From a virus, in the IMG/VR virus record IMGVR_UViG_3300035698_022389, positions 1 to 64,000 of that record: 64,000 nucleotides of DNA; one strand, given 5' to 3'. Shown here piece by piece: positions 1,928 through 37,464 of the stretch. The notes below the pieces were generated by a model. The model was not told the DNA's origin. It was given only the letters and a program-made list of their open reading frames with translations, and did no database searches. Within the stretch, counting starts at the first letter, position 1. The number at the start of each line of letters is the position of its first letter. The translations under genes were made by a program, and so were the position numbers.

Positions 1928-2260
1928 ATGTCCAAGATGCGTGGCCGAAAGGCTCCTTCCCCCGAGGAACAGGAGCTAAATCAGCAGTTAGTGATTGCTG
2001 AGCAGGCATTGTTACGGGCAGCTACAGCCTGTCAGAGAATTGGTAAACAAGATCGGATTGTGGGCAGAAGAGCTTTACAGGCTTCTCGGAATATACACGC
2101 TGCAATTAATTCTATTGGAGAGATAGGGAATATGGTTCCAAATATTGATTCTTCAGACCCTGATATGATGTCCGAAAAGCAGCGGATTGCTTTATTTAGG
2201 GAGATACGGAACGCCCGATTGGAAAAACATAAAAAAACTCGTCTTAGGAGATCTGAATAA
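1928..2260 (+). CDS. Hypothetical protein (110 aa)
   Basis: Tightly packed ORF; its stop overlaps the portal start (TAATG). Confidence 0.65.
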   Translation: MSKMRGRKAPSPEEQELNQQLVIAEQALLRAATACQRIGKQDRIVGRRALQASRNIHAAINSIGEIGNMVPNIDSSDPDMMSEKQRIALFREIRNARLEKHKKTRLRRSE

Positions 2261-5200
2261 TGGCAAGAAGAAAAAAACAACAACAAGATGCTGTTGAGGT
2301 TCGAAAAGTCCCTAATAAAAAAAAGGGAGCTCAAGCAGGTAAACCTGATAAGATTATGACTGGTGCTATGAGGATGAAAACAGCTTTTTCAATGGCTTCG
2401 GGGACGACCGTGGGAGCAGGGGGTAACTTTTACTCTCCTGAATTATCCACAGATTTCCTTGAACTGCCCCAGAGTATTGATGAGCAGCGGAATTTTTATC
2501 GTCATTTCTATAAGCATGAGCCATTTGTAGGCCAAGCTATTGATCTTCATACAGAACTCCCGCTTTCAAAGCTTCGGGTGAGTCTGCCTATAACTAAAGA
2601 TCGTCAAATGGCCGAGAAGGCTTTGAGATTTTGTGAACAATGGTCAAAGAAAGTTCGGCTTCTCCATCGACTCCTGGAAATTACACATGAATATCATCTT
2701 CTCGGTGAGGTGTTTATTTTCTGTGAGGACATTAACCCTAATATTCCTAGAGAAATTAGGGAAGAACCTGTTCGTGAGATTACGTCTGAGGGTAAATTAC
2801 TGGAGTCTTGGGTTCCTTATGATGATGCAAATGCTCGTGAAGTAGCTTGGTTGAAGAACAATTACAAAGGGTGGACTGCTATTAAGACTCTCCCACCAGA
2901 GCAGATTCAGATGGAATCCTTCCCGTTTACGGATGAGCATCTGTTTGAGTTGGTTCCTGATTCTAAATCCAAAGATGTTGTGAATAAAGCTCAACAGGGT
3001 GATATTAGAGCCGCTGGGATTGTTGATTCGATGTCCGCAGATATTGTGGGTGCTATCCTTGCAGGTGAGAACCTCCCTTTGAATACGGATCCTGATGCAG
3101 GGTCCTTCGTTTATTATCTGGCCAGAAAACGTAGTCAATATGAAGAACGTGGAAGTTCTATTCTTCAACGTTGCCTACTCCCAGGCACTCCTATATGGAT
3201 TAAACGGGATGGTATTGTTCAACAAGTTTCCGTCGAAAATGTAAATGAAAACACTGATACAATGCTGACACATAAAGGTCGTTTCAAACCCTGTAAAGCA
3301 GGATCACGTCCCGTAAATGAGGTTATAACAGTATTGGATATTGCGGGTATTACTGAAAATCTTAGTTTAACTTCTGATCATGAAGTTTTGAGGGTTAATG
3401 GGGATGGGACAGAAGACTGGGTTGAAGCAGGTAAATTACAACCTGGAGATATGGTTAGAGAAGGTCATATTGTTCCTGATGGTGATCCTATAAAGACTAT
3501 TAACTTGGTAGACTGGTGGCAGAACCATTTCTTAAGTTCAGTTAAACGGGGTAGACCTGATATGGGTTTGCCTGAAACATGTCGGGAGTTGGTTGTCCAT
3601 AAAGCTTATTCCAATGAGGAAGGGCTTACTGTAACGTTTCATCATGACAACGATAACAAAAACAGGGTTAAAGCCACCTCTGTACTGGAGAAGATACTTA
3701 CATGGGCTAAGAGCCTAGTTACACCTATTACGATGCCTCAAGCTGCCGTAGCGGTTGCTGCAGGGGTGTCTGAACGGGATGTACGTGTATATACCCCCCG
3801 TCTTCGGAAAGAAGGTATGCTGAGGGTTGAAACTAAATCTCTAGGTAGGGGGAAAGGACAATCCTCAACGTGGTATCCAGCAGATACTGATAAGCTACCT
3901 CCTGTTATAACAGAAATGGTTTCCCCCATTAGTGAAATTATTATTAATGAAGATTTCTGTTATTTACTGGGTACTTGGATGGGTGACGGTTGTGTGTGGA
4001 CTGAAACAGAGAGCTTGTTGAATGTTCATAGCATAGGATGGTCTTTACATGATAAAGATATAGCAGCCCATGTAAATAATCTGGCTGGTCGTTGTTTTAA
4101 AGGGTCTGATATAAAAAAAGGGTGTTTGGTTAGTAAAGTTGCAAAATCTAATGACATCCGTATTGAGGACCCTCTCTTAGCTCGCTGGTTCAAAGAAGAA
4201 TTTGGGCATACTGCCCAAGGAAAACATTTGCCAGAATGGGTTTTCCACCTGTCTGACAAACATATTATGGCTCTTTTGCAAGGTCTTTTGGATACTGATG
4301 GTTGGTTAGGTGTAGGTAAGGCATATCGAATTGAATTTGCTTTGGATAATAAGGTTTTGATAGATCAAATTCATCTGCTTTGTAACAGGGTTGGGATAAA
4401 ATCTAAGGTTGGTATTGATCATAAGAAAGCACGGTCATGGACACGTACTTGGGATACCAAGGATGGCACTCGTACAAAGACATATCATTATGAAGCTAAA
4501 GATTTTCCTAAATTATCATGTTCTCGGTCCGAAGATGTAAGACGTTGGGCAAAAGGAAGTATAAAAGGTTCTCGTGCAATTTGGGATAACAGGGGTGTTG
4601 ATAAACGTGGTGGCCCAAAAACCATAAATGGTTGGATGGTACATAAGATAAAATCTGTTTCACATGTTCTTTATAAAGGTCCTGTTTATTCGTTCAATGT
4701 GGAGGGAGATACTTCACACTTTACTTTAACTATCACCCATAACTGTATGAGAACACTAGTTTTTAGAGATAAAGTTAGACAGTCGATGACTAGCATAGCT
4801 TCTCGTCATATGACTCCTTATAGGCTCGTATGGGCTGAGGATATGAATGATGATCAGACAGAAGAATTGCGTGAGCAGGTAGACTTGGCTCTTCAAGATC
4901 CTGATTACTCTATCATTACTTCTTTCCAGGTCAATTGGGAGGAAATGGGAGCAGATCAGCGACTACCTGATTGGAGTTGGGTTTGGGATTTCACTGACCG
5001 TCAGCTATATGCTGGGTTGGGTGTAACCGAGGGTTTGTTGTCTGGTGAGAGTTCTTATGCTGGTGATAGATTGCATTTGGAAGTCATTAATACAAGATAT
5101 ATGTTGCTTCGAGAATTGCTTCAAGATTTGGTGGAAGAGTATTTCTTCAAGCCTATGTGCCGTCGGATGGGTTTTGTTGAAGAAGATCAGGATGGAAACT

Positions 5201-5532
5201 TGGAAGTAGTTGTTCCTCGGTTGTCATTCACTCGATTGGCACTTCGAGATAATGCTGATACGTTTGATGCTTTGTTCAATTTGTATCAGAAGGGTTCTTT
5301 GGACATTGATACTATCCTCGACCTTCTGAATATCGATCCCGTCACCACAAAAGAGAAACTCCTTCGTGATTTTGGAACTCTCAATGATGCTACCTTTAAT
5401 GAAGTGCTTCGAGGTGCTTATAGCCGTGTAGGTGAGGGATTAGTGGAGGGTTCCAACTTGACTGAGAAAGTTGCTTCTGGTCTAGGATTACAGTATACGA
5501 AACCCGTGGAAGAAGGTAGCGGTCGTTTCTAA
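2260..5532 (+). CDS. Portal protein with a cis-splicing intein
   Basis: Follows terminase. Portal-like segments PFVGQAIDLHTELP, 'LREQVDLALQDPD' and 'QLYAGLGVTEGLLSGE'. Removing the intein leaves about 566 aa. Confidence 0.82.
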   Translation: MARRKKQQQDAVEVRKVPNKKKGAQAGKPDKIMTGAMRMKTAFSMASGTTVGAGGNFYSPELSTDFLELPQSIDEQRNFYRHFYKHEPFVGQAIDLHTELPLSKLRVSLPITKDRQMAEKALRFCEQWSKKVRLLHRLLEITHEYHLLGEVFIFCEDINPNIPREIREEPVREITSEGKLLESWVPYDDANAREVAWLKNNYKGWTAIKTLPPEQIQMESFPFTDEHLFELVPDSKSKDVVNKAQQGDIRAAGIVDSMSADIVGAILAGENLPLNTDPDAGSFVYYLARKRSQYEERGSSILQRCLLPGTPIWIKRDGIVQQVSVENVNENTDTMLTHKGRFKPCKAGSRPVNEVITVLDIAGITENLSLTSDHEVLRVNGDGTEDWVEAGKLQPGDMVREGHIVPDGDPIKTINLVDWWQNHFLSSVKRGRPDMGLPETCRELVVHKAYSNEEGLTVTFHHDNDNKNRVKATSVLEKILTWAKSLVTPITMPQAAVAVAAGVSERDVRVYTPRLRKEGMLRVETKSLGRGKGQSSTWYPADTDKLPPVITEMVSPISEIIINEDFCYLLGTWMGDGCVWTETESLLNVHSIGWSLHDKDIAAHVNNLAGRCFKGSDIKKGCLVSKVAKSNDIRIEDPLLARWFKEEFGHTAQGKHLPEWVFHLSDKHIMALLQGLLDTDGWLGVGKAYRIEFALDNKVLIDQIHLLCNRVGIKSKVGIDHKKARSWTRTWDTKDGTRTKTYHYEAKDFPKLSCSRSEDVRRWAKGSIKGSRAIWDNRGVDKRGGPKTINGWMVHKIKSVSHVLYKGPVYSFNVEGDTSHFTLTITHNCMRTLVFRDKVRQSMTSIASRHMTPYRLVWAEDMNDDQTEELREQVDLALQDPDYSIITSFQVNWEEMGADQRLPDWSWVWDFTDRQLYAGLGVTEGLLSGESSYAGDRLHLEVINTRYMLLRELLQDLVEEYFFKPMCRRMGFVEEDQDGNLEVVVPRLSFTRLALRDNADTFDALFNLYQKGSLDIDTILDLLNIDPVTTKEKLLRDFGTLNDATFNEVLRGAYSRVGEGLVEGSNLTEKVASGLGLQYTKPVEEGSGRF
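3172..4743 (+). mobile_element. Portal intein (524 aa) with LAGLIDADG homing endonuclease
   Basis: Starts CLLPGT, has block B LTSDHEVL, LAGLIDADG helices YLLGTWMGDGC and LLQGLLDTDGW, block F VYSFNVEG, and ends THN followed by Cys(+1) at 4744. Confidence 0.93.
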
Positions 5533-5570: not shown

Positions 5571-6998
5571 ATGGAAGGGTTTGTGATGAATACACATCAG
5601 CAAAAACAGGCAAAGCAACTTGCATTCCGATGGATTCGGAAGACGGCAAGTGGGTGGGAAAAACGAGTATCCCACCTTACTGACAGGTATTTTTTGTTGA
5701 AGACGGGCAAGGAATTCCCTACGGGTGAGGCTTTGCAGAAGTACCTTGAGGAACATCCGAAAGCTGATAAACGCCGTCATTGGGTCACAGATGAAAAGGA
5801 AAACAAAAAAGTTGAAGAGGGTAGTAAATCTAACCCTGAGATCGGATACGTCCGGAAATGGGGGAAAGCCCGCGCTTCAAAATTAGAGTCCATGAGAACA
5901 GGTTCTTTTACCCCCACTCCAATTTCAGGAACTTTGGGAGCTAAATCAGTTAAAGGCATCCAAAAAAATGCAAAAAAACTTCTCCGAACCTATTCAGCTC
6001 ATCTTCCTGGTGATGATGTGGATAATATGCGGGATTTCATTGACGATCTAGGGGACACCCTGGATTCGGCCCTTTCCTCTGGGGATTTCAAAGGGGTTAA
6101 GGCATCTGCCATGGACAAGATTATGCATGATGCCATTGAGGATCTTGTGTTTCAAACACATGAATCCTACAAACGTCAGCTCGGTGATCATGGTATTCGA
6201 CATATCGTTGGGAACATTAAGACTCAAAATCAGGTTTATGATGCTTTGGATAAGGCAGGTAAGAAAATTTCTGCTGCCGATAGGCTCAAAGCCATGTTGA
6301 TAATGGTTAACCATGACCTTGGATACACAGCTGCCCCTGCTGCAACAGATCTTAAATATACAGGTAAACACAAGGAATATGGGTCAAAGATTTTCAAGAG
6401 TGAGCGGGGGGATAACTATCAAGATTTGTTTGGTGATGGTTTAGATGAGTTTGTCCATCTGATTGAGACCCATGATTCTGATGAGATTGATTGGGATAAA
6501 GATCCCGTTGGTAGTGGCATTCGAGTTGCCGATAATCTTAGCCTCTATGCTAAAGATAAACTTCCTGGGCTATTCCGTCTGGTTCCAGATGGCCTTGATG
6601 TATTAGAAGAATTGGGGAGAGCTGCCACGGCAAAACCCCCTGATGATGATGAAGTGGAGAGAATCAAAAAGTCTTTAAAAGAAAAGGTTCAAAATACAGG
6701 GCTTTCTAGTGCTTTAAAAGATGCACTTCTGAATGCTGCCCAAGAAGTCAGTAGGTTCACTCCTAGATTTACGTTAGGTATGCTCGGTGGCCATGTGGGT
6801 TCAATAAATTTTAAGGATGGTTCCTTGGTGGTGAAGGTGAAGAAGGATGCCTATGACACCCAGCTCCAGAAATTATTTGACATGGGGCAGTCCCAGTTTA
6901 ATAAATTAGCTAAGTCTTATGGGGTTGATAAAGTTACGGATAATAAGTTTGAGTTGTCTAAGAACGGCAAGTCTGTCCTGAAACTTAGTATTGGATAA
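5571..6998 (+). CDS. HD-domain metal-dependent phosphohydrolase-like protein (ATG at 5586 is a possible start)
   Basis: HD-superfamily spacing: DHGIRH, VNHDLGY, ETHD, VADNL. Confidence 0.7.
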   Translation: MEGFVMNTHQQKQAKQLAFRWIRKTASGWEKRVSHLTDRYFLLKTGKEFPTGEALQKYLEEHPKADKRRHWVTDEKENKKVEEGSKSNPEIGYVRKWGKARASKLESMRTGSFTPTPISGTLGAKSVKGIQKNAKKLLRTYSAHLPGDDVDNMRDFIDDLGDTLDSALSSGDFKGVKASAMDKIMHDAIEDLVFQTHESYKRQLGDHGIRHIVGNIKTQNQVYDALDKAGKKISAADRLKAMLIMVNHDLGYTAAPAATDLKYTGKHKEYGSKIFKSERGDNYQDLFGDGLDEFVHLIETHDSDEIDWDKDPVGSGIRVADNLSLYAKDKLPGLFRLVPDGLDVLEELGRAATAKPPDDDEVERIKKSLKEKVQNTGLSSALKDALLNAAQEVSRFTPRFTLGMLGGHVGSINFKDGSLVVKVKKDAYDTQLQKLFDMGQSQFNKLAKSYGVDKVTDNKFELSKNGKSVLKLSIG

Positions 6999-9900
6999 AT
7001 TAATGAAACCTGAAAAATACTTCGGTGCTGCATATGGCAAAAAAACAGGAGATGGGACGGGAGTAGGTCTTTTTATCCCCCTCCCCGAACCTTTGGCTTC
7101 TCAATTCCCTAGTTTGGGGGATGCGGATACGAGTCCTTCCCATTGTACATTTCTGTATATTGGAGCTGTCAATAAAGACCAAGAAAAATTGTTCCTGGAT
7201 ACTTTGACTCAGGTGTTCACCGGTTGGGATAAGTCGGTGATGGGTGTTCTGGATTACCTTGATTATTTCATCCACCCTGAAAAAGAACGCCATGTTGCAG
7301 TAATGAAAATCCGTTTCAACCAACGGATGGATGAAATTCGTTGGAAACTTCGAGATGCCCTGATTGAAGTTGGTATCCATGTAGATGATGGTTTTCCTTT
7401 GGTTTATCAGCCTCATGCAACACTTGAATACATTGGCTGCCTTGACACTCCTTATGTGGGCACAGTTCCTTCAGGGAGTTGGACTTTCAATAGCATTGAG
7501 GTTTGGGGACTTCCAAAGCTCCATGTGATTCCATTCCAGCAAACACCTACAGACAGAATGGCTTCAAAATACATAGCGTCATTAAAACACCAGACATCTA
7601 TCGAATTGATGAAGTTCTTGGCAAATGCTGTGAACAAACTTGGTGCAGGGAGGCATGTCTATGTAGTTGGGGGAGCCGTCAGGAATTTCATTATATCAGA
7701 GCCTATAAAAGATATAGATATCGTTGTGGATTCCATTGGGGCAGGGAAAGATTCAGCTTGGTTGGCCAAGAAACTTCAGAAAGCCATTCCCACCCGAACC
7801 AACTTGGTGACAAATCAGTATGGTGTTGCCATAATAACAATCAAAGATGACTGGTTCATCGGGGATTCCAATTTGAAGGGTGAAACTATCGAGATAGCTA
7901 ATGCCCGTAAAGAGTCTTACGGGGGGGTAGATGGCAAAGGGTACAAACCTCACATGGTGGAACCCTCGACTATTCAGGAAGATGTAGTTAGAAGAGAGTT
8001 TACTTTTAACACATTATTGTGGCAGATGTCTGAATTAGCCAACGGTCCTGAGAAGGCTGAGATTCTAGATATGACGGGATGTGGCAGGAAAGATTTGGAT
8101 GAAGGGATGATGCGTTGTCCCAGTAATCCAAATAAGACGTTCACAGAGGATCCATCACGAATGATTCGTGCCATAAAATTCCTTATTAAGTATGGGTTCA
8201 AGATAGCTCCTGATGTGAAAGCTGCTATCAAACGGAATGCTCCGAAGTTGAAGAATATTCCATCTGGGCATTTGAGTAACATGATTGTCAATTTGTTTTT
8301 TGAGCCTGGATATGGTTCTAAGGCTTTAGTTGAGATGAAAAAATTAGGACTTTTGGATGTAGTTCAGGAGATTGCGGTTAAAGATAAGTCATTTAGGGAA
8401 GCTCTGGCAAATTGGTCTGATCGAAGTGCCAAGATAGATTTCCTGTTTGAACTGATGGACTATAATATGCCTACAGGACGTAGGTTGAAGTTCCTTAGTA
8501 AAGCTGATTTAGTGAAGCTCAGGGATATTACAGCTCCAATGTCTTCCGATGAAACCGAGAGACTCATTGCTCCGTTGGAGCAGCCTGGTAAACTTGTGAA
8601 TATGAAAGCTCTGATTTCAGAGTTTGGGTTGAAGGGTCAGGAAATCAGGCAATTGACGGATGTTATCCGTCAGGCCATCTTAAAAGATCCTCGGATGGTT
8701 ATGACCCCAGCTCGTCTGGAGAGGGAAACCCGTAAACATATGGGGAAGACAGCTAAGGTTTATACAGAGGCCGATCTGTTTCCAGCTCTACGAAAGTTTG
8801 AGGATGCCGTTGAACAACTGGATAAATATTATGCCATAATCCATGTCTATGTGGAATCTTTAGGTGATAAGGGTGGTGAAAAACAGTTGCAATTGGCTTT
8901 TGAGAGGGGTGTCCGACGGTATTGGGAATATGTTATTAATGCAGGTGCCGAATTGTCTCGGATAGTTCTTGACCAGAAAGCTATCCCTGCGGGGCAGGCT
9001 AAGAAAATTGAGATGGCAGCCCGATTGTTTATGTCTGCCCTGCGTTTCCCAAAGAAGTTTGACAATTGGATGAAAAAGAATACTAGGCATATCAAGTACC
9101 TAGAAGAAGCTGCTAAGAAATGGAAAGACAAAGAAGAAGGCGATGAGCTGTTTAAGATTGGACCTTTTGATGTTCATAATACTATAGGGGCATCTGATAA
9201 GGATCTTGAAGGAATCAAAACACTGGTTTCAAAAGGAATCTCTTTGGTCAAGAAAGCTAGTGGTGCTCTCACAGGTTACAAGAAGACTTTGTATGGTGAT
9301 GTTTTCGTCGTTGGTAAACTTCTGAAATCCCATACGATGGCTTGGTATGAGATAGGGGATGATTCTGTTTATATGAGGCTTATGAAAAAGGTTGATTATG
9401 ATGATCTTCAGTCCTTGCTTCATGAGTTAGCTCATCGGTATTGGAGAAAATTCTTATCCCATGGTGTAAAAACCCGCTGGCATGTTCATCACAATGCTGT
9501 TGGAGGATCAATGGCAGGTAAAGTTGATATGCCTGAAGTTGGGGACATTCTCCCATTTTCTGTCAATAAAACAAAAAAACCAAAAGTACTGGGGATTGAA
9601 TCTGGTGTTTATATTTTAGAAGCCCGTTCCGGTAATCCTTTAGCTGTGCAAAAGATGACTTTATACAAATGGATGCAGCAGGAACAGAAAACTGGAAAAT
9701 ATCCGACTAGATATGCAGCCACGGATGCAGAAGAACATTTCTGTGAAGCTATGGCTCTTTACGCTTTGGGGAAATTAGGTCCTGAGCATGTTAAGGCTTT
9801 AGAAGAATCTTTAACAGGGAAAGAGGATGAGCTTTCGTTCATTCAGAAAGATGTTGCTGCAATGACAGATCAAGCTATTGAGCGGGTAGCCAAAGGATTC

Positions 9901-12900
9901 AAGAAACGGGCTTCATATTTCAGAGCTGGTGACCCTATTTTCTTCGGTAAATACAAGAATAAAAAGGGCATAATCAAAGGTTTCGGGCAAAATTCAAAGA
10001 ATCAGTCTGTAACTGTTATCATCGAGCTTGACCCTAAAGGCAGAAAACAGGAGAAAGCAATCAGTTTGTACAACATCTGGCATCGGGACATTGAACGTCG
10101 TGCCTCTGTTGACCGCCTGGCTATCAAGTACGAAGCTCGTGTCAAAGAGCCTTGGAAGATGACTTTTAATGAATTCAGGAAATCTGTAAAAGTTCAGAGA
10201 GTTGAATGGAAAGCTGTCCAGACTTTCCAGGACTTCTTGAAGGCCAAACGGGTTAACCCATCAGATATTCCAACAGAAGCTGAGGAAGCAGATGCTATTG
10301 GTGGGTTGGTATTTAGGCGTCCTAATATGACAACTCAGCAAATAGGGCGTTTGAAGACATTAGTTCGTAAAAAATTGTATAAGGATAAATTATATAAGGA
10401 ATGGGGGACTACTGTTGATAGAGTTGAGTCCCGTTCAGATTTGGATTTAAGCAGGGCTGATGATAAAGCCTATTTGAGAGTTGAACATAAACGGGCAATT
10501 CGTAAAGCTCTCCATCATCGAAAACATGTCCCAGATAAAGTTTTGATTGAGTATCCTGAATTGACTGCTGTAGACAGGATTGCATCCAGGAGCTTAAAAG
10601 CTAAGGGTACTCATAACTTTTTACGGATAGAGAAACTTATGACAGATCTTCGTGAGGAATTACCACGAGGTTTTTATAGGAATACCCCTATAAAGGAAAG
10701 TCAAGTAAAAGATATTCAACGAAAAGCTCGTGCTTTGTATGATGCCCTTGTCTTTGATTTCGAGGGGACACGGGCTGCTTTCCTTTATAAAAAGAAAGCC
10801 CATCGTAAAATCGAGAATTTTCGTAAGTTCTTTTTAGCACTTACCAAAGTAACAGGTCCTGAAGAAATGATGGCATACCTCCAAAAATGGGGTGGTAAGA
10901 CTAAAGGGTACTTTGAAAAGTTTTGGGACTCCATGCGGTTTACTTTAGGTGTCATTCAAGCACTTGATGTGGAACGTATTGATTCTTTCTCAGTTGGTAA
11001 GTGGAATGTCTCATTATGGACATCTCCCCGTGCTGATTGGGATGATGGTAAGGTTGGTCGTTTGCAGTGGGTTTTGGACAGGGCTGATAAAATGACTACC
11101 TCTAAGGGGTTTGGGGGTGTGTCTTACGGTCGGGTAAATGCCTATCCCTCGGGTAATGTTCCAGTATCAGGGCATGGAAGTGGTTCAACCATGGCAATGT
11201 ATAACCCCTCAACTGATTTGGTCAGTTTGGGTGCAGGGAAAGATGTTAAGAGGACTCTCTTGGATTTAATCCATGAATTAGGTCATCGTTATTATTTCAA
11301 AAAAATGGGGTCACGGGGACGTGCCGCATGGGAGGAGTTTTTTGAAGCCTCTCAAGGTTCTCCCAATGTGGATAAGCTAATTGCCGATTGGGAAAGATAT
11401 GTTAAGAATGCAACTGGATGGGATGGTAAGAAATACGGTCGGTATCTGTTTCAGTATTACTCTTATTTGAAGAAAAAAGACCCTGAACAAACCATGTGGC
11501 TTGAAATGGTTGCAGATAAAATAGATATTAATGAGCCTTCCAATGCTTATGGTCCTAAAAAGGGGATTACCCCTGGCCTTGATCAGTTGATTGCACGTAA
11601 AGGGGAAGCTAATGTTTTCCTTCACCCTGTAACGGCTTACAGTGCTACAAGTCCATCGGAACTATTTGCTGAAACCTTCTCTCATGCAATCTTTTATGGG
11701 CCAAATACGATTCCCGAAATAGTCAGGGATGTGTTCAAGCGGGCAGCCCCTAAAGCAAAAATGGCCTCTGATAGGCAGATTAATCGCATTGCATCTAAGT
11801 TTCAGAAGAAAAAAGAAGTCCCTAAAGCAGATGGCAAAGGGACAACCACGGTCTATGAGTACAGTGAAGGTCAGATTCAGAATCGGAACAGGGACAAAGC
11901 CAAACGAATAGAGGCTCTTCGGGGGAAACTGGATAAACTCCATACGTCTATTAAGAAAGACCTGAAATCCAAAGATGAACAGACCTGGATGACTGCTCTG
12001 GCTATTGGGCTTATCAATGATACATTTGAGCGGGTTGGTAACTCAGGTTCAGCTAATGACGGCCATTTTGGTGTGACTGGCTGGCAGGCCAAGCATGTAA
12101 CTTTGGGGCCTGGAAAAGCTACTTTCAAATACGTCGGCAAATCAGGTGTGAGTCAGTCCAAGACAACCACCGATAATGGCCTTGTGAGTGCCCTGAAAGC
12201 AGCAATGGAGGGTAAGACGGGTTCTGACCCTATATTCAAGGCAGAGAGCTTCACAGTGGATTCAGGGAAGATTAACACCTATCTGAAGCCCTTTGACATC
12301 ACAGCTAAGGATGTCCGGGGTCTTCATGCTAACAGGCAAGTCCAGAAGGCTCTTAAATCCATCCGTTCTGCCGGTGGGAAATTACCAACGGATCCAAAGG
12401 AAAAAGAGAAGAAGTTGAAGGCTGAATTTCAGTCTGCCCTCGAACAGGCAGCAAAAGCTGTCGGTCATGAGGCTGCCACCTTGAAGAATCAGTATTTAGT
12501 TCCAGGATTGGAAGATAATTATCTGAAAGATGGGACTGTTAAAGAGAACTTGGCCAGACAGAAAAAGGCAACTAAAACCCACGGGGAAAGAGATGACGAG
12601 GAAACTGCTAAACTCGTAAAACCTCTCCCTAAGAAGAACCCTCCACGGTATGATCTTAGAAACGAACGGGTTAATGTGGATAAGGACAAGGATACAGGGG
12701 GCAATAAGGCTGATAATGATAAGGACATGAGCCTGAACTACAAGAGGGTTGCTATAGACCGTCTGGCTGACCGTTGGTTGAGACACGCTGTTGAGGCAAA
12801 GAAACCTGGGGATATCTGGAAAACGAACAAAGGTTATTCAGTTAAATTGGATGATGACACTATCCGACAGACGGACTCTGGGGCCAAGGCTAAAATTATA

Positions 12901-14586
12901 CTGGAGAAATTCCGTAGTGGGAAGAAACCCGAGGATGATCCGAGCGGGAAAAAGAAACCTCAAGAGGTACCTGGCAGTGTTGAGAAAGCTCTGATCAAAG
13001 TTGAGGAAGATAAAGCTCAAGCCAAAGTTGATGAAGCAGCTGCGAAGGCTGATGAAGTTCCTCAAGATGAAGAACCTGCTTCCAAGGAGGAAGCTATTTC
13101 AAAACAGCCTGAAATCTCGAAGTCAAAGAAACAGAAACGATTTGATGAGGTCGCTGCTGTTTATAATGGTTTTATTGTTGATATGGGGAAAGATAAACGG
13201 TTCAAATCCGTATTAAAAGAAATTAGTGATTTTGATAACCCACAGGAAGTTATGACAGCTTTCCAAACTCAAGTTACCGATATTAGGGCTGAGATAGATA
13301 AAGGAAACCTTTCTCCTGAAACCATTCAGGCTGCTTCAGATGCATTAGAAAACCCAGGTGGTGATGGCATGGCCAATGCCAAAATGGTTGGTCAGACTTT
13401 GGCATTGGCTATGATAGCCAAGAAATTAATAGCTAATCCTCTTTATAGAGGTGGTCAGTCTTCTGGTTTAGATGCTGAAGGTACGGTATCTGATTCCCGT
13501 GATCTAACAAAAAAAGCCAGGGAAACTGCAAATTATTACAGTTCCTTAACTCCGATTCTCCGACAGGAGGCTATTGCTGAAACTAAGAAGCTATTTACGG
13601 GGTTAGAGGGAGGTTCTACTCAGCGTCATGAATTGGATAAGTTAGCTGATGGTATTCATCATGCTGCTAGTGTTCAGGGAGATTACGATGATCCCCGAAG
13701 TGGTAATGCTTCTTTAAGGCCACCTCCAGGGCCAGGCCTTCGGAGTGTCTTGCAAGTTTTGGCCACTAAAGGTGAAGACCAGGATATTTTGGATATTATA
13801 GTAAATAGCTCAAAAGGTGGCCTGGGTTCAGATGATGCCAAGCTTAAAATCAAAAGTGCTTTGGACGATTTATCTGATGATGATTTGTATGAAGCTTGTG
13901 GTGGGGAAAATGGCCCAGATGCACTTACTATAGATTTGTTGCAGAATGGGGGTCTGTCTTCTAAGGAACTGGAATATGTTAAGGATATGTTAGTAGGTGG
14001 TTTGGTAGATAGTATTTCCTCTCATGATGAGATAACTGCCCGTATAACGCAGGGTGATAAAGTAATTCAACAGTTAGTAGACCTTGAAAAAACTCAAGAC
14101 CAAAAACCAGAAACTAAAACCCTAGGGGACTCTGAAAATTCAACCCTTCACGGGGACACAGAATATTGTTGGACATGTCCCCGTGAAGATGGAGCACCTT
14201 CTTCACAAGAACTGGTTAACAATATAGAAAATGGTGCCCGAAAGGAGACTGATGAGGAGCGGTTTAAGTTGGCTGAGTGTCTGAAAGAGGCTAAGAGTCC
14301 TGAGCGTAAGCAGAAGTGTCTCGATAAATTGAATAGGGTGCCCTTAGATAAATTAGCTAATGATAATGAGGATTTACGCCCAGAAGATCCTTGGCAGGAC
14401 GCATGTAATGTTTACCGTTTGAGCTTAGCCGAGGCTCGATTAAAGTTTTTTGAAGAAACTTTCGGTGAACTTCCTATAGATGACCCTTTTAAAGTCCAGA
14501 TTCAAACAGCAATCAAACTTTATGATGCTGAAGAGTTGGACAAAAGATACATCCGAGAGGGTGAGAAGTTAGGAAACTTATTTTAA
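6991..14586 (+). CDS. Giant multidomain 'polyvalent'-type protein: 2H phosphoesterase + CCA/poly(A)-polymerase-class nucleotidyltransferase + two HExxH metallopeptidase-like domains + type IB topoisomerase + acidic C-terminal region (ATG at 7003 is a possible start)
   Basis: HCT (7141) and HAT (7414); VGGAVRN, DIDI, RREFT, EDPSRMIRAIKF; LLHELAH (9421) with YAATDAEEHFCEA; LIHELGH (11272) with YSATSPSELFAETF; TopIB pentad ERVGN / GKSG / KDVR / GH-x8-Y. Confidence 0.85.
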   Translation: MDKLMKPEKYFGAAYGKKTGDGTGVGLFIPLPEPLASQFPSLGDADTSPSHCTFLYIGAVNKDQEKLFLDTLTQVFTGWDKSVMGVLDYLDYFIHPEKERHVAVMKIRFNQRMDEIRWKLRDALIEVGIHVDDGFPLVYQPHATLEYIGCLDTPYVGTVPSGSWTFNSIEVWGLPKLHVIPFQQTPTDRMASKYIASLKHQTSIELMKFLANAVNKLGAGRHVYVVGGAVRNFIISEPIKDIDIVVDSIGAGKDSAWLAKKLQKAIPTRTNLVTNQYGVAIITIKDDWFIGDSNLKGETIEIANARKESYGGVDGKGYKPHMVEPSTIQEDVVRREFTFNTLLWQMSELANGPEKAEILDMTGCGRKDLDEGMMRCPSNPNKTFTEDPSRMIRAIKFLIKYGFKIAPDVKAAIKRNAPKLKNIPSGHLSNMIVNLFFEPGYGSKALVEMKKLGLLDVVQEIAVKDKSFREALANWSDRSAKIDFLFELMDYNMPTGRRLKFLSKADLVKLRDITAPMSSDETERLIAPLEQPGKLVNMKALISEFGLKGQEIRQLTDVIRQAILKDPRMVMTPARLERETRKHMGKTAKVYTEADLFPALRKFEDAVEQLDKYYAIIHVYVESLGDKGGEKQLQLAFERGVRRYWEYVINAGAELSRIVLDQKAIPAGQAKKIEMAARLFMSALRFPKKFDNWMKKNTRHIKYLEEAAKKWKDKEEGDELFKIGPFDVHNTIGASDKDLEGIKTLVSKGISLVKKASGALTGYKKTLYGDVFVVGKLLKSHTMAWYEIGDDSVYMRLMKKVDYDDLQSLLHELAHRYWRKFLSHGVKTRWHVHHNAVGGSMAGKVDMPEVGDILPFSVNKTKKPKVLGIESGVYILEARSGNPLAVQKMTLYKWMQQEQKTGKYPTRYAATDAEEHFCEAMALYALGKLGPEHVKALEESLTGKEDELSFIQKDVAAMTDQAIERVAKGFKKRASYFRAGDPIFFGKYKNKKGIIKGFGQNSKNQSVTVIIELDPKGRKQEKAISLYNIWHRDIERRASVDRLAIKYEARVKEPWKMTFNEFRKSVKVQRVEWKAVQTFQDFLKAKRVNPSDIPTEAEEADAIGGLVFRRPNMTTQQIGRLKTLVRKKLYKDKLYKEWGTTVDRVESRSDLDLSRADDKAYLRVEHKRAIRKALHHRKHVPDKVLIEYPELTAVDRIASRSLKAKGTHNFLRIEKLMTDLREELPRGFYRNTPIKESQVKDIQRKARALYDALVFDFEGTRAAFLYKKKAHRKIENFRKFFLALTKVTGPEEMMAYLQKWGGKTKGYFEKFWDSMRFTLGVIQALDVERIDSFSVGKWNVSLWTSPRADWDDGKVGRLQWVLDRADKMTTSKGFGGVSYGRVNAYPSGNVPVSGHGSGSTMAMYNPSTDLVSLGAGKDVKRTLLDLIHELGHRYYFKKMGSRGRAAWEEFFEASQGSPNVDKLIADWERYVKNATGWDGKKYGRYLFQYYSYLKKKDPEQTMWLEMVADKIDINEPSNAYGPKKGITPGLDQLIARKGEANVFLHPVTAYSATSPSELFAETFSHAIFYGPNTIPEIVRDVFKRAAPKAKMASDRQINRIASKFQKKKEVPKADGKGTTTVYEYSEGQIQNRNRDKAKRIEALRGKLDKLHTSIKKDLKSKDEQTWMTALAIGLINDTFERVGNSGSANDGHFGVTGWQAKHVTLGPGKATFKYVGKSGVSQSKTTTDNGLVSALKAAMEGKTGSDPIFKAESFTVDSGKINTYLKPFDITAKDVRGLHANRQVQKALKSIRSAGGKLPTDPKEKEKKLKAEFQSALEQAAKAVGHEAATLKNQYLVPGLEDNYLKDGTVKENLARQKKATKTHGERDDEETAKLVKPLPKKNPPRYDLRNERVNVDKDKDTGGNKADNDKDMSLNYKRVAIDRLADRWLRHAVEAKKPGDIWKTNKGYSVKLDDDTIRQTDSGAKAKIILEKFRSGKKPEDDPSGKKKPQEVPGSVEKALIKVEEDKAQAKVDEAAAKADEVPQDEEPASKEEAISKQPEISKSKKQKRFDEVAAVYNGFIVDMGKDKRFKSVLKEISDFDNPQEVMTAFQTQVTDIRAEIDKGNLSPETIQAASDALENPGGDGMANAKMVGQTLALAMIAKKLIANPLYRGGQSSGLDAEGTVSDSRDLTKKARETANYYSSLTPILRQEAIAETKKLFTGLEGGSTQRHELDKLADGIHHAASVQGDYDDPRSGNASLRPPPGPGLRSVLQVLATKGEDQDILDIIVNSSKGGLGSDDAKLKIKSALDDLSDDDLYEACGGENGPDALTIDLLQNGGLSSKELEYVKDMLVGGLVDSISSHDEITARITQGDKVIQQLVDLEKTQDQKPETKTLGDSENSTLHGDTEYCWTCPREDGAPSSQELVNNIENGARKETDEERFKLAECLKEAKSPERKQKCLDKLNRVPLDKLANDNEDLRPEDPWQDACNVYRLSLAEARLKFFEETFGELPIDDPFKVQIQTAIKLYDAEELDKRYIREGEKLGNLF

Positions 14587-14691
14587 GAAGTAAACTTTTT
14601 CAATCTTTCATCTATATTTGAGGATACCTAAGTAGAGGGCATAGTGCGCCTCGTTTTAACTTGAGTATGGATGACCTTACAAGGAGGACAT

Positions 14692-15735
14692 ATGATGACT
14701 ATGACGTTGACTAAAAAGGGCGCACGGCAAGTGACTGAAACATTGGATAAGGTTGCAACCTTATTTCAGAATGACCACAAAACCCTTGGGATTGACCCAA
14801 AAATTGCCACTGATTTTGCTCACCGTTGTGATGTTCTTTCCGACCATGTTGAGAAACGTGCCGGAATTAACCGTACAGCTCTGACAGAATACGATCCTGT
14901 AAAAGAAACAGGATTCAATCCCGAAGAAATCGGGATTGAAAGATCGGGTCCCCTTGAAATGGTGGATTCAGATGAACCTTTCATGAACGGTGAGTTCACT
15001 CAGCAAGAGAATCGTGAACTTCGTTATGACCAGCAAAGTGGTAAACTCGGTCCAGACCGTACTACTCTTGCCCCACAAAACATTCCTGCAGGCAAACAAG
15101 CATTCGAGAAAATGGGTCGTGAAACTGTCATCAACAAGATGAGTATGATGAATGACACTCTGCATAATACAGCTTTGAAATTAGCTGCACTTAACCAAAG
15201 CATTTTGGCTGATGGTGTGACTAAGCTAGCCCAAGCTGTGATGGATACCCAAGTAGGCATCTCTCTCGGTATCGTGACTGCTGCTCAAAGCACTGAAATC
15301 ATGGATTCTTTCGAACTTGTGATGCCTCACATTGCTGCTGTAAGTCCTCAAACTCAGTCTAAAGTTGCTAGGATGATTGATCTTGCACTTCATATCGCAA
15401 AAAAAGCGGAAGAAGATGAAGATAATGACGACAAGAAGGACGACAAGAAGGACGACAAGAAGGACGACAAGAAGGACGACAAGAAGGACGACAAGAAGGA
15501 CGACAAGAAGGACGATAGTGGCAAATCTTTCTTTGAGAAGATGGAAGAAGCCAAGGCTAAGAAAAAGGCCAAGAAATCTGGTGAAGATGAAGATGACCTT
15601 GATGATGATGATGATGTAGAAGGCAAAAAGAAAGCAGCTAAGAAGTCTGATGAAGATTCAGAAGCTGAAGAGGACGATGATGATGTGGAAGGTAAAAAGA
15701 AAGCCTCTCACGGATTCATTCTGAACGCTGACTAA
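14692..15735 (+). CDS. Acidic/lysine-rich head scaffold-like or internal protein
   Basis: AAGGAGG RBS before ATG 14692; low-complexity D/E/K C-terminus; upstream of the prohead protease. Confidence 0.6.
   Translation: MMTMTLTKKGARQVTETLDKVATLFQNDHKTLGIDPKIATDFAHRCDVLSDHVEKRAGINRTALTEYDPVKETGFNPEEIGIERSGPLEMVDSDEPFMNGEFTQQENRELRYDQQSGKLGPDRTTLAPQNIPAGKQAFEKMGRETVINKMSMMNDTLHNTALKLAALNQSILADGVTKLAQAVMDTQVGISLGIVTAAQSTEIMDSFELVMPHIAAVSPQTQSKVARMIDLALHIAKKAEEDEDNDDKKDDKKDDKKDDKKDDKKDDKKDDKKDDSGKSFFEKMEEAKAKKKAKKSGEDEDDLDDDDDVEGKKKAAKKSDEDSEAEEDDDDVEGKKKASHGFILNAD
15427..15510 (+). repeat. Perfect 12-bp tandem repeat x7 (GACGACAAGAAG), encoding (DDKK)7
   Basis: Read directly from the sequence. 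Confidence 0.97.
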
Positions 15736-15756: not shown

Positions 15757-16407
15757 GTGGCAAAAACAGCAGCTATCGTCAATTATCAAATCCGGGGAGC
15801 ACAGTTCGCTGTTGGCGATGTGGTTTACCCGTTTTTGGACGGCAGTTCTGACTTGAACGGTCGAGTTGTAGCCGTATGGCCAGCCATTGGCATGGTAGAT
15901 GTGGAATGGCCTCACGGGTCGGAACGTCTTCCTGTTGAAGATATTCAGAAAATATCTCCTGATTCTTTCTATCAACCCCCTGAAGTGGCACCTGGTGAAA
16001 GTAGTGTACCCGGTGGTGCTGAAAGTGTCCCTGTATCAACGGGTCCTTCGGAAAAAGCTGTTATTCCTGAAGAGGAACAAGTAACTCGGTTGACTGCTGC
16101 TTTCATCAAAAAAGCTGTATGGCAGAATTCCCAATTACCTGAATTCCGACGAAGACTTGGCCTTTATTGGGCTTCTCGTGACCGACGGTATAGAGCCCGA
16201 AAAATTGAATTGGGTGACGGTGTTTATCATTGTCCAAAGTGTGCTGGGGTTGAATTACGGAAAGCCATCTATAAACGACGTGCAGGTGAAAGCTTGCATT
16301 TATTAGGTTGCCCAAATTGTCTGTTCCTTATCAAGAAATCTGACATTATAGGTGACCCAACTTATACTGAGTTTGACATTACACCCAATCGGAAACGGAG
16401 GTTGTAA
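15757..16407 (+). CDS. Hypothetical protein with C-terminal zinc ribbon
   Basis: GTG start after AAGGAG; CPKC...GCPNC; stop overlaps the next ATG. Confidence 0.7.
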   Translation: MAKTAAIVNYQIRGAQFAVGDVVYPFLDGSSDLNGRVVAVWPAIGMVDVEWPHGSERLPVEDIQKISPDSFYQPPEVAPGESSVPGGAESVPVSTGPSEKAVIPEEEQVTRLTAAFIKKAVWQNSQLPEFRRRLGLYWASRDRRYRARKIELGDGVYHCPKCAGVELRKAIYKRRAGESLHLLGCPNCLFLIKKSDIIGDPTYTEFDITPNRKRRL

Positions 16408-20486: not shown

Positions 20487-20496
20487 GGAGGTACTC

Positions 20497-21448: not shown

Positions 21449-21478
21449 TTGACACCTTTGAGATTGTTCTGTTATACA
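21449..21478 (+). promoter_or_regulatory. Sigma70-like promoter
   Basis: TTGACA-N18-TATACA with an extended -10 TG, upstream of ATG 21533. Confidence 0.6.
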
Positions 21479-21532
21479 TGTGTTACGAGGTTTTGTTTTT
21501 TTGTGTTTACATGTGTTGTGAAAAGAGGGTGT

Positions 21533-36451: not shown

Positions 36452-36499
36452 TCCAAGTCTGCAAATAAAGTTGGCCAAGGAAAGTATATGGTGTTTTAA

Positions 36500-37177: not shown

Positions 37178-37437
37178 TGGGAACTGGTAATAATAACAAC
37201 GATATAACATTTTTTGATTCTGGCCCAAACAAAACGAAATACATGCTAGCTACAGTAAATTCTACTATAAATAGCGATAAAGATACAAACAAGTATCCAC
37301 CGACTGAAAGACTAATAACGACTGAAACTATTGAAGTATATATTGGGGTTGGTGATCGTGCAGAATTTGTTACACATATTTTTGATGCAAAGAAGGCTGA
37401 AAACCAAAGGTTAAATAGAAAACTGAGTTCTTATTAG
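37177..37437 (+). CDS. Hypothetical protein (86 aa)
   Basis: TAATG coupling to the upstream gene; no motif. Confidence 0.45.
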   Translation: MGTGNNNNDITFFDSGPNKTKYMLATVNSTINSDKDTNKYPPTERLITTETIEVYIGVGDRAEFVTHIFDAKKAENQRLNRKLSSY

Positions 37438-37464
37438 GTGGAAAAGGGAAGGAAACCTTTCAAA

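What the first reader, a model, noticed from the sequence alone, without database searches (positions are those of the whole stretch)
6991..14586. 2,531-aa polyprotein between portal and head genes stringing together five recognisable enzyme domains
Seen in order: 2H phosphoesterase (HxT x2), CCA/poly(A)-polymerase-class nucleotidyltransferase, HExxH peptidase-like domain, SH3/KOW-like domain, a PWKMT...HKRAIRKAL...VPDKVLIEYPEL segment, a second HExxH domain, type IB topoisomerase, acidic tail. Known: phage 'polyvalent proteins' near portal/MuF genes combine conflict-related enzymes and are thought to be injected with DNA. I see no MuF domain here. Inference: a packaged precursor processed into separate early-acting enzymes. 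This domain combination looks unusual.
Basis: partly seen in the sequence, partly recalled or inferred. Interest (0 to 1): 0.8.

Follow-up and report, generated by a model that had tools for sequence, protein, structure and literature searches.

The report
Giant tagged multi-enzyme phage cargo protein
One 2,531-residue phage gene between the portal and capsid genes joins an RNA-end repair pair, two anthrax-lethal-factor-like peptidases and a DNA topoisomerase, each module preceded by the same short peptide tag; it belongs to a large, apparently undescribed family in huge phages whose products are probably carried into the host inside the capsid.

Summary
The ORF is real (6991-14586, 2,531 aa; the likely start is ATG 7003). 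All five proposed enzyme domains hold up, and their catalytic residues are intact: 2H phosphoesterase, CCA/poly(A)-type nucleotidyltransferase, two paralogous zincin peptidases with an anthrax-LF/PPEP-like fold, and a type IB topoisomerase with the full R-K-R-H-Y pentad. The KOW/SH3-like piece, the 'PWKMT' piece and the 600-aa C-terminal module remain unassigned. The combination is not a one-off. At least 95 related giant proteins (1.4-4.2 kaa) occur on metagenomic phage contigs of up to 528 kb. Their modules are shuffled, swapped (NUDIX, SOD, ART-PolyVal, InPase, RNA ligase) or split into separate genes. The genes always sit in one slot between the portal and a scaffold-like gene. The main new result is a short tag, consensus (A/S)-A-x-R-V-A-A-R-Y-L, in front of every module. 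It is about 39-fold enriched over shuffles and absent from the neighbouring structural genes. It also starts, or occasionally ends, the stand-alone versions of the modules. In the same position it can be replaced by the 25-aa tag found on nine small ORFs of this window. Best reading: a polyvalent, capsid-loaded cargo protein whose modules carry an address or processing tag. Packaging and cleavage are inferred, not shown. The scan found no look-alike on other DNA.

The parts
6991..7554 (+). Module 1: 2H phosphoesterase (aa 1-188; likely start ATG 7003)
   Evidence: HxT motifs at H51/T53 and H142/T144, conserved in 36/36 homologs. The profile A3 hits LigT/ThpR structures 1vdx, 2fyh and 5h7e at E 0.001-0.007. 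Homologous modules carry Pfam PF13563. The window's own copy gives no Pfam hit at E<=1.
7555..8739 (+). Module 2: class II CCA-adding/poly(A) polymerase-type nucleotidyltransferase (aa 189-583), starting with tag RMASKY (7555-7572)
   Evidence: Pfam PolyA_pol E 3e-15 and PolyA_pol_RNAbd E 2e-5. PHROG tRNA nucleotidyltransferase E 4e-32. PDB poly(A) polymerase and CCA-adding enzymes down to E 8e-17. GG..R and D241xD243 conserved in 58/58 homologs.
8740..9882 (+). Module 3: zincin peptidase 1 (aa 584-964; HELAH at 811-815, third-ligand helix EEHFCEA at about 914-920). Only a degenerate tag (RETRKH/KTAKVY, aa about 578-591) sits at its start
   Evidence: AF2 model pLDDT 91.7. VIA-align: anthrax LF Z 9.5, APN 9.4, PPEP-2 8.8. 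Foldseek hits are weak but all zincins. HExxH and E are invariant in 25 sequences. N-terminal alignment to stand-alone forms.
9883..10113 (+). Module 4: small basic KOW/SH3-like module (aa 965-1041), starting with tag RVAKGF (9883-9900)
   Evidence: Present in 38 homologs with the invariant motif G-K-Y-K-N-K-x-G. No Pfam or PDB sequence support. The fold assignment is untested.
10114..10575 (+). Module 5: unassigned 'PWKMT...VPDKVLIEYPEL' module (aa 1042-1195), starting with tag RLAIKY (10114-10131)
   Evidence: Shared by only 4-9 homologs. No Pfam or Atlas match.
10576..11784 (+). Module 6: zincin peptidase 2 (aa 1196-1598; four-helix bundle plus LF-like catalytic domain, HELGH 1428-1432, E1557), starting with tag RIASRS (10576-10593)
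   Evidence: AF2 model pLDDT 87.6, with the tag itself at low confidence. VIA-align: anthrax LF Z 11.0, PPEP-2 9.6. Paralog of zincin 1 (hhalign prob 99.6%, E 1e-23). Sub-threshold Pfam matches to Peptidase_Mx, ATLF and MPTase-PolyVal.
11785..12540 (+). Module 7: type IB topoisomerase (aa 1599-1850), starting with tag RIASKF (11785-11802). Pentad R1681, K1717, R1776, H1826, Y1835
   Evidence: Pfam Topoisom_I E 1e-23. Alignment to D. radiodurans and variola TopIB places the pentad. The pentad is conserved in 85/85 homologs (Y in 84/85).
12541..12759 (+). Charged linker (aa 1851-1923). Many homologs carry extra modules at this point
   Evidence: Break between alignment pieces at q1857/1858 in many homologs. 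Composition.
12760..14586 (+). Module 8: C-terminal module of unknown fold (aa 1924-2531), starting with tag RLADRW (12760-12777). The last 281 aa have net charge -25
   Evidence: Aligns to the extreme C-termini of 30-39 homologs at 22-48% identity. Only 14 hits among 1.84 billion representatives, mostly the same family. No Pfam, PDB or Atlas match.
5571..6998 (+). Upstream 475-aa HD-like ORF with a tag-like N-terminus (QAKQLAFRWIRK): a further occupant of the same slot
   Evidence: Tag scan. Pfam HD match is weak only (E 0.45). Absent from related loci, except for a 120-aa remnant in L003 with the same N-terminus.
14671..15735 (+). Scaffold-like protein that bounds the slot on the 3' side; degenerate tag-like motifs (LDKVATLF, KIATDF) near its N-terminus
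   Evidence: Conserved in all related loci. Acidic repeats and a conserved C-terminal HGFxLxA.

Best explanation
This is a polyvalent cargo protein of a clade of large to huge phages whose capsid is related to that of Bacillus phage G. It is a concatenation of eight self-contained modules.

Each module is preceded by a short amphipathic tag, consensus (A/S)-A-x-R-[VIL]-A-[AS]-[RK]-[YFW]-L. The tag acts as an address or processing label for proteins encoded in the slot between the portal and scaffold genes.

Proposed mechanism:
- The protein is made late and loaded into the prohead through its tags and/or its constant C-terminal module.
- It is probably cut at or near the tags, by its own LF-like zincin modules or by the head protease.
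- It is delivered with the DNA.

Proposed roles of the delivered enzymes:
- The 2H and CCA-adding modules (with the neighbouring HD protein) would heal 2',3'-cyclic-phosphate ends and rebuild tRNA 3' ends damaged by host defence RNases.
- The ATP-independent topoisomerase IB would relax the incoming genome for early transcription or replication, as the virion-packaged vaccinia enzyme does.

Shown: the domain identities and intact active sites, the modular shuffling, the conserved slot, and the tag with its statistics.
Inferred: packaging, cleavage, delivery and the targets.
For: Domains:
- All five enzyme domains are confirmed with catalytic residues conserved across the family.

Family and modularity:
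- 95 giant relatives carry the modules in different orders and mixed with NUDIX, SOD, PAP2, ChaC and RNA ligase.
- They also carry ART-PolyVal (PF18760) and InPase (PF18823). Reference PMC5512222 treats ART and InPase as polyvalent-protein domains.

Synteny:
- The order TerL-portal-[slot]-scaffold-like-o216-protease-o509-o232-MCP holds in five loci with both flanks, including the 485-kb LR745208.1. Two further loci keep the 3' flank.
- The slot holds one giant gene, or 2-4 genes that mostly start with the tag, or only a 528-aa topoisomerase IB protein.

Tag:
- The strict motif occurs 138 times in the 95 giants against 3.6 in shuffles.
- It occurs 27 times against 1.1 in the short homologs. Of those 27, 17 lie within 26 aa of the N-terminus and 4 within 10 aa of the C-terminus.
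- It occurs 20 times in 21,344 slot residues against 0 in 31,330 residues of the flanking head genes.
- It precedes nearly all of 80 topoisomerase modules and most internal CCA and KOW-like modules.
- Stand-alone zincin proteins begin or end with it. Two begin instead with the window's 25-aa tag.
- In the AF2 model the tag is a low-confidence helix detached from the domain, as expected for a linear motif.
Against: - There is no virion proteomics or cleavage data for any member.
- The cultured phages with related capsid genes (phage G, Tunturi_5) have neither the gene nor the tag.
- No MuF, portal fusion or other known head-incorporation domain was found.
- The C-terminal module has no recognisable fold.
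- The tag is absent from the MCP, protease, portal and o509. It therefore does not behave like the shared prohead-protease site of T4 or phiKZ-type phages.
- No residue flanking the tag points to a scissile bond.
- One junction (CCA to zincin 1) has only a degenerate tag.
- The contig has no tRNA genes, and I found no direct link to a defence RNase.
Confidence: 0.55

Rival explanations
1. Packaged but not cut. The tags are only docking helices that tether one intact giant multi-enzyme to the capsid interior, portal or scaffold. In this respect it would resemble N4 virion RNA polymerase, which is packaged unprocessed. The zincin modules would then act on host proteins after delivery.
For: Stand-alone modules keep the tag at their extreme N- or C-terminus, where a release site would serve no purpose. 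The tag is missing from the proteins a head protease normally cuts. PMC5512222 notes that N4 vRNAP is packaged uncleaved despite its MPTase domain.
Against: In relatives the same modules are separate genes, so the modules evidently work when apart. Two intact peptidase modules lie inside the chain. A 280-kDa protein would have to leave through the tail unfolded.
Confidence: 0.2
2. Not a virion protein. It would be a cytoplasmic multi-enzyme (RNA repair plus DNA relaxation) that merely sits in the late operon. The tag would be a linker or assembly motif that recruits the modules to each other or to a host machine.
For: There is no direct packaging evidence. CCA-adding enzymes, 2H enzymes and HD enzymes are common non-virion genes of jumbo phages (PMC7824862). 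Phage G encodes its CCA enzyme far from the head genes.
Against: The slot between portal and scaffold genes is conserved across divergent loci. The family shares ART-PolyVal and InPase modules with polyvalent proteins. A scaffold-like neighbour carries degenerate copies of the tag.
Confidence: 0.15
3. The core job is done inside the capsid. The topoisomerase IB is the one constant occupant of the slot. It would relieve twist that builds up while a very long genome is packaged or ejected, and the other modules would be passengers.
For: 85 of 95 relatives carry the topoisomerase. In LR745208.1 the slot holds only a topoisomerase protein. The enzyme needs no ATP (established for type IB enzymes).
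Against: The retrieval was biased by the query. Some relatives lack the topoisomerase (P0033, P0035, P0050, P0052, P0054, P0057). Nothing here tests activity in the head.
Confidence: 0.1

Closest known systems
Polyvalent proteins of phages and conjugative elements (Iyer, Burroughs, Anand, de Souza, Aravind 2017, PMC5512222)
   Same: Many unrelated enzyme domains in one polypeptide. Zincin-like peptidase (MPTase) modules are interspersed among them. The gene lies in a head-gene neighbourhood. There is extensive domain shuffling. 2H, InPase and ART-PolyVal domains occur in the family.
   Different: The core pair here is topoisomerase IB plus a CCA-type nucleotidyltransferase. That paper has no occurrence of 'CCA' and a single occurrence of 'topoisomerase', whose context I did not see. 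There is no MuF, portal or ArdC-N anchor. The zincins miss the MPTase-PolyVal Pfam threshold. A conserved peptide tag marks the module junctions; the passages I read do not mention one, but I did not search the paper for it.
T4 internal proteins and Alt with their capsid targeting sequence; ejection proteins of SPN3US/phiKZ-type giant phages cut by the prohead protease (PMC3012670, PMC5694885, PMC10052503; found, not read)
   Same: A short peptide shared by otherwise unrelated cargo proteins of the head. The cargo is delivered with the DNA.
   Different: The T4 signal is strictly N-terminal and ends in the protease site (L/I-x-E), which also occurs in scaffold and capsid proteins (my knowledge). 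Here the tag can be N-terminal, internal or C-terminal, has no conserved acidic residue, and is absent from the capsid, protease and portal proteins.
Encapsulin cargo-loading peptides (my knowledge; not tested here)
   Same: Short terminal peptides that can be moved between unrelated enzymes and load them into an HK97-fold shell.
   Different: No sequence similarity. No evidence here that the tag binds the capsid protein.
Vaccinia virus topoisomerase IB, packaged in the virion core (established knowledge)
   Same: A small type IB enzyme with the same R-K-R-H-Y pentad and H-to-Y spacing. It is proposed to travel with the genome.
   Different: About 30 bits of similarity only. Here it is one module of a giant protein, and packaging is unproven.
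Anthrax lethal factor / Pro-Pro endopeptidase zincins (MEROPS M34-like)
   Same: Best structural matches for both HExxH modules (Z 9.5-11.0). HExxH plus a downstream E-x-F-A-E helix.
   Different: About 10-17% identity. Pfam ATLF matches are sub-threshold only. Extra N-terminal helical bundle and different inserts. Substrate unknown.

Membership tests
Type IB topoisomerase (Pfam PF01028) | Match above the curated threshold | tested here: met
   84.3 bits against a cutoff of 23.7, aa 1630-1833
Type IB topoisomerase (Pfam PF01028) | Catalytic pentad Arg-Lys-Arg-His-Tyr | tested here: met
   R1681, K1717, R1776, H1826, Y1835, placed by alignment to 2f4q and 2h7f. Conserved in 85/85 homologs, Y in 84/85
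Class II nucleotidyltransferase (CCA-adding / poly(A) polymerase, PF01743) | Head-domain match above threshold, with the GG..R and DxD motifs | tested here: met
   57.1 bits against 23; PolyA_pol_RNAbd 24.4 against 22. G227-R231 and D241xD243 conserved 58/58
Class II nucleotidyltransferase (CCA-adding / poly(A) polymerase, PF01743) | CCA-adding rather than A-adding or poly(A) specificity | not testable with these tools
   PDB hits include both poly(A) polymerases and CCA-adding enzymes at similar scores
2H phosphoesterase superfamily | Two HxT/S motifs on a duplicated fold | tested here: met
   H51-x-T53 and H142-x-T144, 36/36 conserved. Both motifs align to LigT 1vdx
2H phosphoesterase superfamily | Pfam family match above threshold (PF13563/PF02834) | tested here: not met
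   The window's own module gives no Pfam hit at E<=1. Homologous modules in relatives carry PF13563
Zincin (gluzincin) metallopeptidases, LF/PPEP-like | HExxH helix plus a downstream Glu ligand helix on the zincin fold | tested here: met
   Invariant H-E-x-x-H and E in both families. Best fold matches are LF at Z 9.5 (rmsd 4.7, 185 aligned) and Z 11.0 (rmsd 3.7, 167 aligned), followed by other zincins
Pfam MPTase-PolyVal (PF18818) / ATLF (PF07737) | Match above the curated threshold | tested here: not met
   Sub-threshold only: ATLF in 9/25 and 12/26 members (best E 1e-3), MPTase-PolyVal in 2 members of each alignment (E 0.008-0.017)
Polyvalent protein (sensu Iyer et al. 2017) | Several functionally unrelated effector-type domains in one polypeptide, encoded beside the phage packaging/head genes | tested here: met
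   Eight modules, five of them enzymatic. The slot between portal and scaffold genes is conserved
Polyvalent protein (sensu Iyer et al. 2017) | Physical packaging in the virion and transfer to the host | not testable with these tools
   No proteomic data for any clade member. The cultured relatives lack the gene
MuF / SPP1 gp7 head protein | MuF domain | tested here: inconclusive
   No Pfam hit at E<=1 in the giant protein or in its segments. The C-terminal module was not folded, so a remote relationship is not excluded
KOW / SH3-like barrel | Five-stranded barrel, KOW motif | tested here: inconclusive
   Only a KOW-like pattern G-D-x-[IV]-x-x-G-K-Y-K-N-K-x-G. No Pfam or PDB profile hit.
T4-type capsid targeting sequence | Peptide necessary and sufficient for prohead loading and removed by the head protease | not testable with these tools
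   Only the positional and statistical behaviour of the tag is known

The most novel reading that the evidence does not exclude
The short R-V-A-A-R-Y-L tag and the interchangeable 25-aa tag form a portable cargo-loading code of a whole clade of huge phages. Any enzyme that acquires a tag is loaded into the capsid. Concatenating tagged modules gives giant polyproteins, which are cut back into single enzymes at the tags. This would be a natural, programmable protein-packaging system, comparable to encapsulin loading peptides but in tailed-phage heads. Its constant cargo would be a virion-borne topoisomerase IB and a tRNA 3'-end repair kit.
Probability: 0.35. Interest if true: 0.85.

Novelty: new variant of a known kind. 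Interest (0 to 1): 0.66.

Why it matters
If the reading holds, a widespread group of uncultured large phages brings a ready-made enzyme set into the cell with its DNA. The set would comprise a DNA relaxase, tRNA-end repair, peptidases and a changing list of counter-defence enzymes. That bears on how huge phages survive the first minutes of infection and on which host defences (tRNA-cutting nucleases, supercoiling-dependent steps) shape them. The junction tag is a concrete, testable handle. It predicts which proteins of these genomes are cargo, offers a candidate signal for loading foreign proteins into phage heads, and explains how giant phage genes grow and break apart by shuffling tagged modules. 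The two zincin families and the C-terminal module are also sizeable protein families with no current Pfam model.

Tried and rejected
- I first took SLNY (aa about 1914-1917) for the topoisomerase active site. Alignment to solved TopIB structures places the Tyr at 1835, so aa 1851-1923 is a linker, not part of the enzyme.
- The tag as a generic prohead-protease site of the T4/phiKZ kind is unlikely. There are 0 copies in 31,330 residues of the flanking ORFs of the loci (portal, protease, o509 and MCP among them). The S/A/G-x-E strings seen after some stand-alone tags are not present after the window's tags.
- The tag as an internal translation start: some window copies have M or V a few residues upstream, but no Met is conserved at positions -12 to -1 across 140 copies.
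- The CCA module as a maturase for phage tRNAs: there are no tRNA genes on the 133-kb contig. The contig may be incomplete, so this is weak.
- Searches that gave nothing:
  - No close DNA match among 50,697 phage records.
  - ESM Atlas for the C-terminal module and for the KOW+X region.
  - PDB profiles for the KOW-like and C-terminal modules and for the protease. One profile (A4) was spoiled because I included long proteins.
  - Pfam for the 3,926-aa ORF downstream.
  - Single-protein scans of viral contigs returned only 2 and 6 loci.
- Literature searches for a virion topoisomerase IB in phages, or for recent work on polyvalent proteins, found no description of this family. The library does not cover most subscription journals.
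Full report
THE OBSERVATION

Window 6991-14586 (+) is one uninterrupted frame of 2,531 codons from TTG. The public cluster for the same protein has 2,527 residues, which corresponds to the ATG at 7003.

Upstream lie a large terminase (30-1673), a portal (2260-5532) and a 475-aa ORF. Downstream lie a 354-aa acidic protein, a 216-aa protein, a head maturation protease (16407-18023), a 509-aa acidic protein, a 232-aa protein and the major head protein (20446-21369; PHROG 2522, E 1e-50).

THE DOMAINS

- Topoisomerase IB. Pfam gives Topoisom_I at aa 1630-1833, E 1e-23. Alignment to the Deinococcus and variola enzymes places the pentad at R1681, K1717, R1776, H1826 and Y1835. These are conserved in 85/85 relatives, with one Y to F.
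- Nucleotidyltransferase. Pfam gives PolyA_pol plus its RNA-binding domain at aa 223-458, E 3e-15. PHROGs calls it a tRNA nucleotidyltransferase. PDB chains of poly(A) polymerase and CCA-adding enzymes match down to E 8e-17. The GG..R and DxD motifs are invariant.
- 2H phosphoesterase. The N-terminal 188 residues carry two HxT motifs. They give no Pfam hit themselves. A five-sequence profile finds the LigT/ThpR 2H enzymes at E 0.001-0.007 with both motifs aligned, and related modules carry PF13563.
- The two HExxH regions. I aligned each with stand-alone homologs and folded both, with pLDDT 91.7 and 87.6.
  - A fold search that does not depend on Foldseek puts the catalytic domain of anthrax lethal factor first for both. 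The scores are Z 9.5 (rmsd 4.7, 185 aligned) and Z 11.0 (rmsd 3.7, 167 aligned).
  - Next come the Pro-Pro endopeptidases, aminopeptidase N and other zincins.
  - Foldseek hits are weak (E 0.04) but all are zincins.
  - H-E-x-x-H and the Glu of a downstream E-x-F-A-E helix are invariant.
  - The two modules are paralogs (hhalign probability 99.6%, E 1e-23).
  - They reach the Pfam families ATLF, Peptidase_Mx and MPTase-PolyVal only below threshold. In practice they are unmodelled families.
- Unassigned parts. The KOW/SH3-like piece (aa 965-1041), the next 154 residues and the last 600 residues gave nothing in Pfam, PDB sequence profiles, the ESM Atlas or a full scan of 1.84 billion representatives.
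- The acidic tail is real: net charge -25 over the last 281 aa.
- No MuF domain was detected.

A LARGE FAMILY OF SHUFFLED MODULES

A search of 5.8 billion proteins returned 95 related clusters of 1,430-4,243 residues, besides the window's own, on contigs of up to 528 kb. Mapping them onto the query defines blocks that are present or absent independently:

| Module | Relatives carrying it (of 95) |
|---|---|
| 2H | 36 |
| Nucleotidyltransferase | 58 |
| Zincin 1 | about 23 |
| KOW-like | about 38 |
| Module X | 4-9 |
| Zincin 2 | up to 11 |
| Topoisomerase | 85 |
| C-terminal module | 30-39, always at the protein's end |

The order of the blocks varies. For example, P0021 reads zincin 2 - NTase - 2H - topoisomerase.

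Relatives add NUDIX, Fe/Mn superoxide dismutase, PAP2, ChaC, RNA ligase, cREC, DUF5661 and inteins. They also add ART-PolyVal and InPase; ART and InPase domains are treated as components of polyvalent proteins in PMC5512222. Both zincin modules also exist as stand-alone proteins of 340-430 residues.

ONE CONSERVED SLOT

In related contigs from IMG/VR and in the published 485-kb genome LR745208.1 the gene order is the same: terminase, o85, portal, [slot], scaffold-like protein, o216, protease, o509, o232, MCP. The slot content differs:

- one giant gene (window, L001, L003);
- two to four genes (L005, L006, L007);
- a single 528-aa topoisomerase protein (LR745208.1).

The capsid protein is 84% identical to that of LR745208.1, 50% to Tunturiibacter phage Tunturi_5 and 39% to Bacillus phage G. 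The two cultured phages have neither the slot genes nor the tag.

THE JUNCTION TAG

Every module boundary of the window protein carries a copy of R-[ILMV]-A-x-[KRG]-[YFW]:

| Tag | First residue (aa) |
|---|---|
| RMASKY | 189 |
| RVAKGF | 965 |
| RLAIKY | 1042 |
| RIASRS | 1196 |
| RIASKF | 1599 |
| RLADRW | 1924 |

A degenerate copy sits at aa 578-591.

The tag is a property of the whole family:

- The topoisomerase module is almost always preceded by R-V-A-A-K-Y, including when it opens the protein. The same holds for most internal nucleotidyltransferase modules and for the KOW-like modules.
- Stand-alone zincins begin with it seven to ten residues from the start, and some end with it.
- In split relatives most of the separate genes start with it.
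- The strict motif occurs 138 times in the 95 giants against 3.6 in composition-matched shuffles (maximum 10). It occurs 27 times against 1.1 in the short homologs.
- Across eight loci there are 20 copies in 21,344 slot residues and none in 31,330 residues of the surrounding ORFs, which include terminase, portal, protease and capsid genes.
- On the whole 133-kb contig, clear copies outside the giant gene are few. They are in the upstream HD-like ORF (N-terminus), a 155-aa ORF at 25602-26069 and a second giant ORF outside the window. Three other short matches look like chance.
- The consensus is (A/S)-A-x-R-V-A-A-R-Y-L. This is one face of a two-turn amphipathic helix flanked by two basic residues.
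- In the zincin 2 model the tag is helical but has low confidence and is detached from the domain.
- Two stand-alone zincin 1 proteins carry a different peptide in exactly this position: 'KLIRIAHANPELRAKLLPLIKK'. That is the 25-aa tag found on nine small, unrelated ORFs at 35969-42706 of this window. One giant relative has it at an internal junction. The two peptides share the [RK]-[LIV]-A core.
- The scaffold-like neighbour has degenerate copies near its N-terminus.

HOW IT MOST LIKELY WORKS

The protein fits the polyvalent-protein concept of Iyer et al. (PMC5512222): unrelated effector domains in one chain, interspersed zincin peptidases, head-gene context, rapid shuffling. I read the tag as the label that defines cargo of this slot. 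It may be a docking peptide for loading into the prohead, a processing site, or both, as in the T4 capsid targeting sequence.

- Against a generic head-protease site: the tag is absent from the capsid, protease and portal proteins.
- In favour of some processing: the modules function as separate genes in relatives, and two intact peptidases are built in.

The likely cargo functions follow from established enzymology:

- 2H enzymes open 2',3'-cyclic phosphates left by metal-independent RNases.
- The CCA-type enzyme rebuilds tRNA 3' ends.
- HD domains in bacterial CCA enzymes supply phosphatase activity.
- Type IB topoisomerases relax DNA without ATP, and the vaccinia enzyme is carried in the virion.

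None of these steps was tested here, and no tRNA genes are on the contig. I put 0.55 on the packaged, tag-addressed, at least partly processed reading. I put 0.2 on packaged but uncut, 0.15 on not packaged, and 0.1 on a role of the topoisomerase inside the head.

COMPARISON WITH WHAT IS KNOWN, AND NOVELTY

The kind of protein is known. Three things are apparently not described in what I could read:

- the core combination of topoisomerase IB with a CCA-type enzyme (PMC5512222 contains no 'CCA' and a single 'topoisomerase', whose context I did not see);
- the size and distribution of the family in huge-phage contigs;
- above all, the junction tag and its equivalence to a second, longer tag.

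Literature searches found no description, with the caveat that the library is incomplete. Other first-stage notes on this genome had already pointed to the motif, the topoisomerase pentad, the HD/2H/CCA neighbourhood and the 25-aa tag. I verified the first two and linked the last to this protein. The scan holds no look-alike on other DNA.

VERDICT

Observation confirmed. Interpretation partly supported. This is a new variant of a known kind, with a concrete, testable new element: the tag.

Noticed in passing
window 3172-4743 (portal aa 305-828): The portal gene carries a 524-aa intein with a LAGLIDADG domain. The window reads ...SILQR|CLLPG...ITHN|CMRTLVFRDKVR, while the closest relative (L003) reads ...SILQRCMRTLVFRDKVR with no insert. 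The junctions are the classical Cys1, His-Asn and Cys+1.
   Followed up: partly
window 35969-42706: Nine small ORFs carry the 25-aa tag (L-V-K-L-A-S-D-N-P-E-L-R-K-H-L-V-P-L-L-K) at the N-terminus, the C-terminus or internally. One cargo is a GNAT acetyltransferase. The same tag replaces the short junction tag at the N-terminus of two stand-alone zincin 1 proteins (P0102, P0104) and sits at an internal junction of P0090. An ORF of LR745208.1 starts with its first 11 residues, after which the fetched locus ends (L012, 28159 onward).
   Followed up: partly
window 5571-6998: A 475-aa ORF with HD-like motifs (Pfam HD only at E 0.45) and a tag-like N-terminus (QAKQLAFRWIRK). It is absent from related loci. 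L003 keeps only a 120-aa ORF with the same N-terminus.
   Followed up: partly
window 25602-26069: A 155-aa ORF of unknown function. It carries the only other clear copy of the short tag in the window apart from the HD-like ORF's N-terminus (DKLARRFM, near its C-terminus).
   Followed up: no
same contig, 77666-89446 (outside the window; L011:67-11847): A second giant ORF of 3,926 aa with no Pfam match at E<=0.01 and one tag-like motif (KKRVADKF, aa about 3698).
   Followed up: partly
homologs P0011, P0012, P0013, P0026, P0031, P0032 (query aa about 323-342): In several relatives the nucleotidyltransferase module is interrupted at one and the same point by an insert of about 450 aa carrying intein/LAGLIDADG Pfam domains (PF14528, PF14890). 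In L001 the head protease is also interrupted by an insert of about 2.8 kb.
   Followed up: no
window 21449-24100: An 883-aa ORF directly after the capsid gene combines a LAGLIDADG homing endonuclease match with DNA methyltransferase matches (PHROGs).
   Followed up: no
L006 8450-9184 and 9911-10771: One related contig appears to carry two topoisomerase IB modules in the same giant ORF (27% and 58% identity to the window's).
   Followed up: no
whole contig (132,879 bp): ARAGORN finds no tRNA or tmRNA gene on the contig that holds the window.
   Followed up: yes
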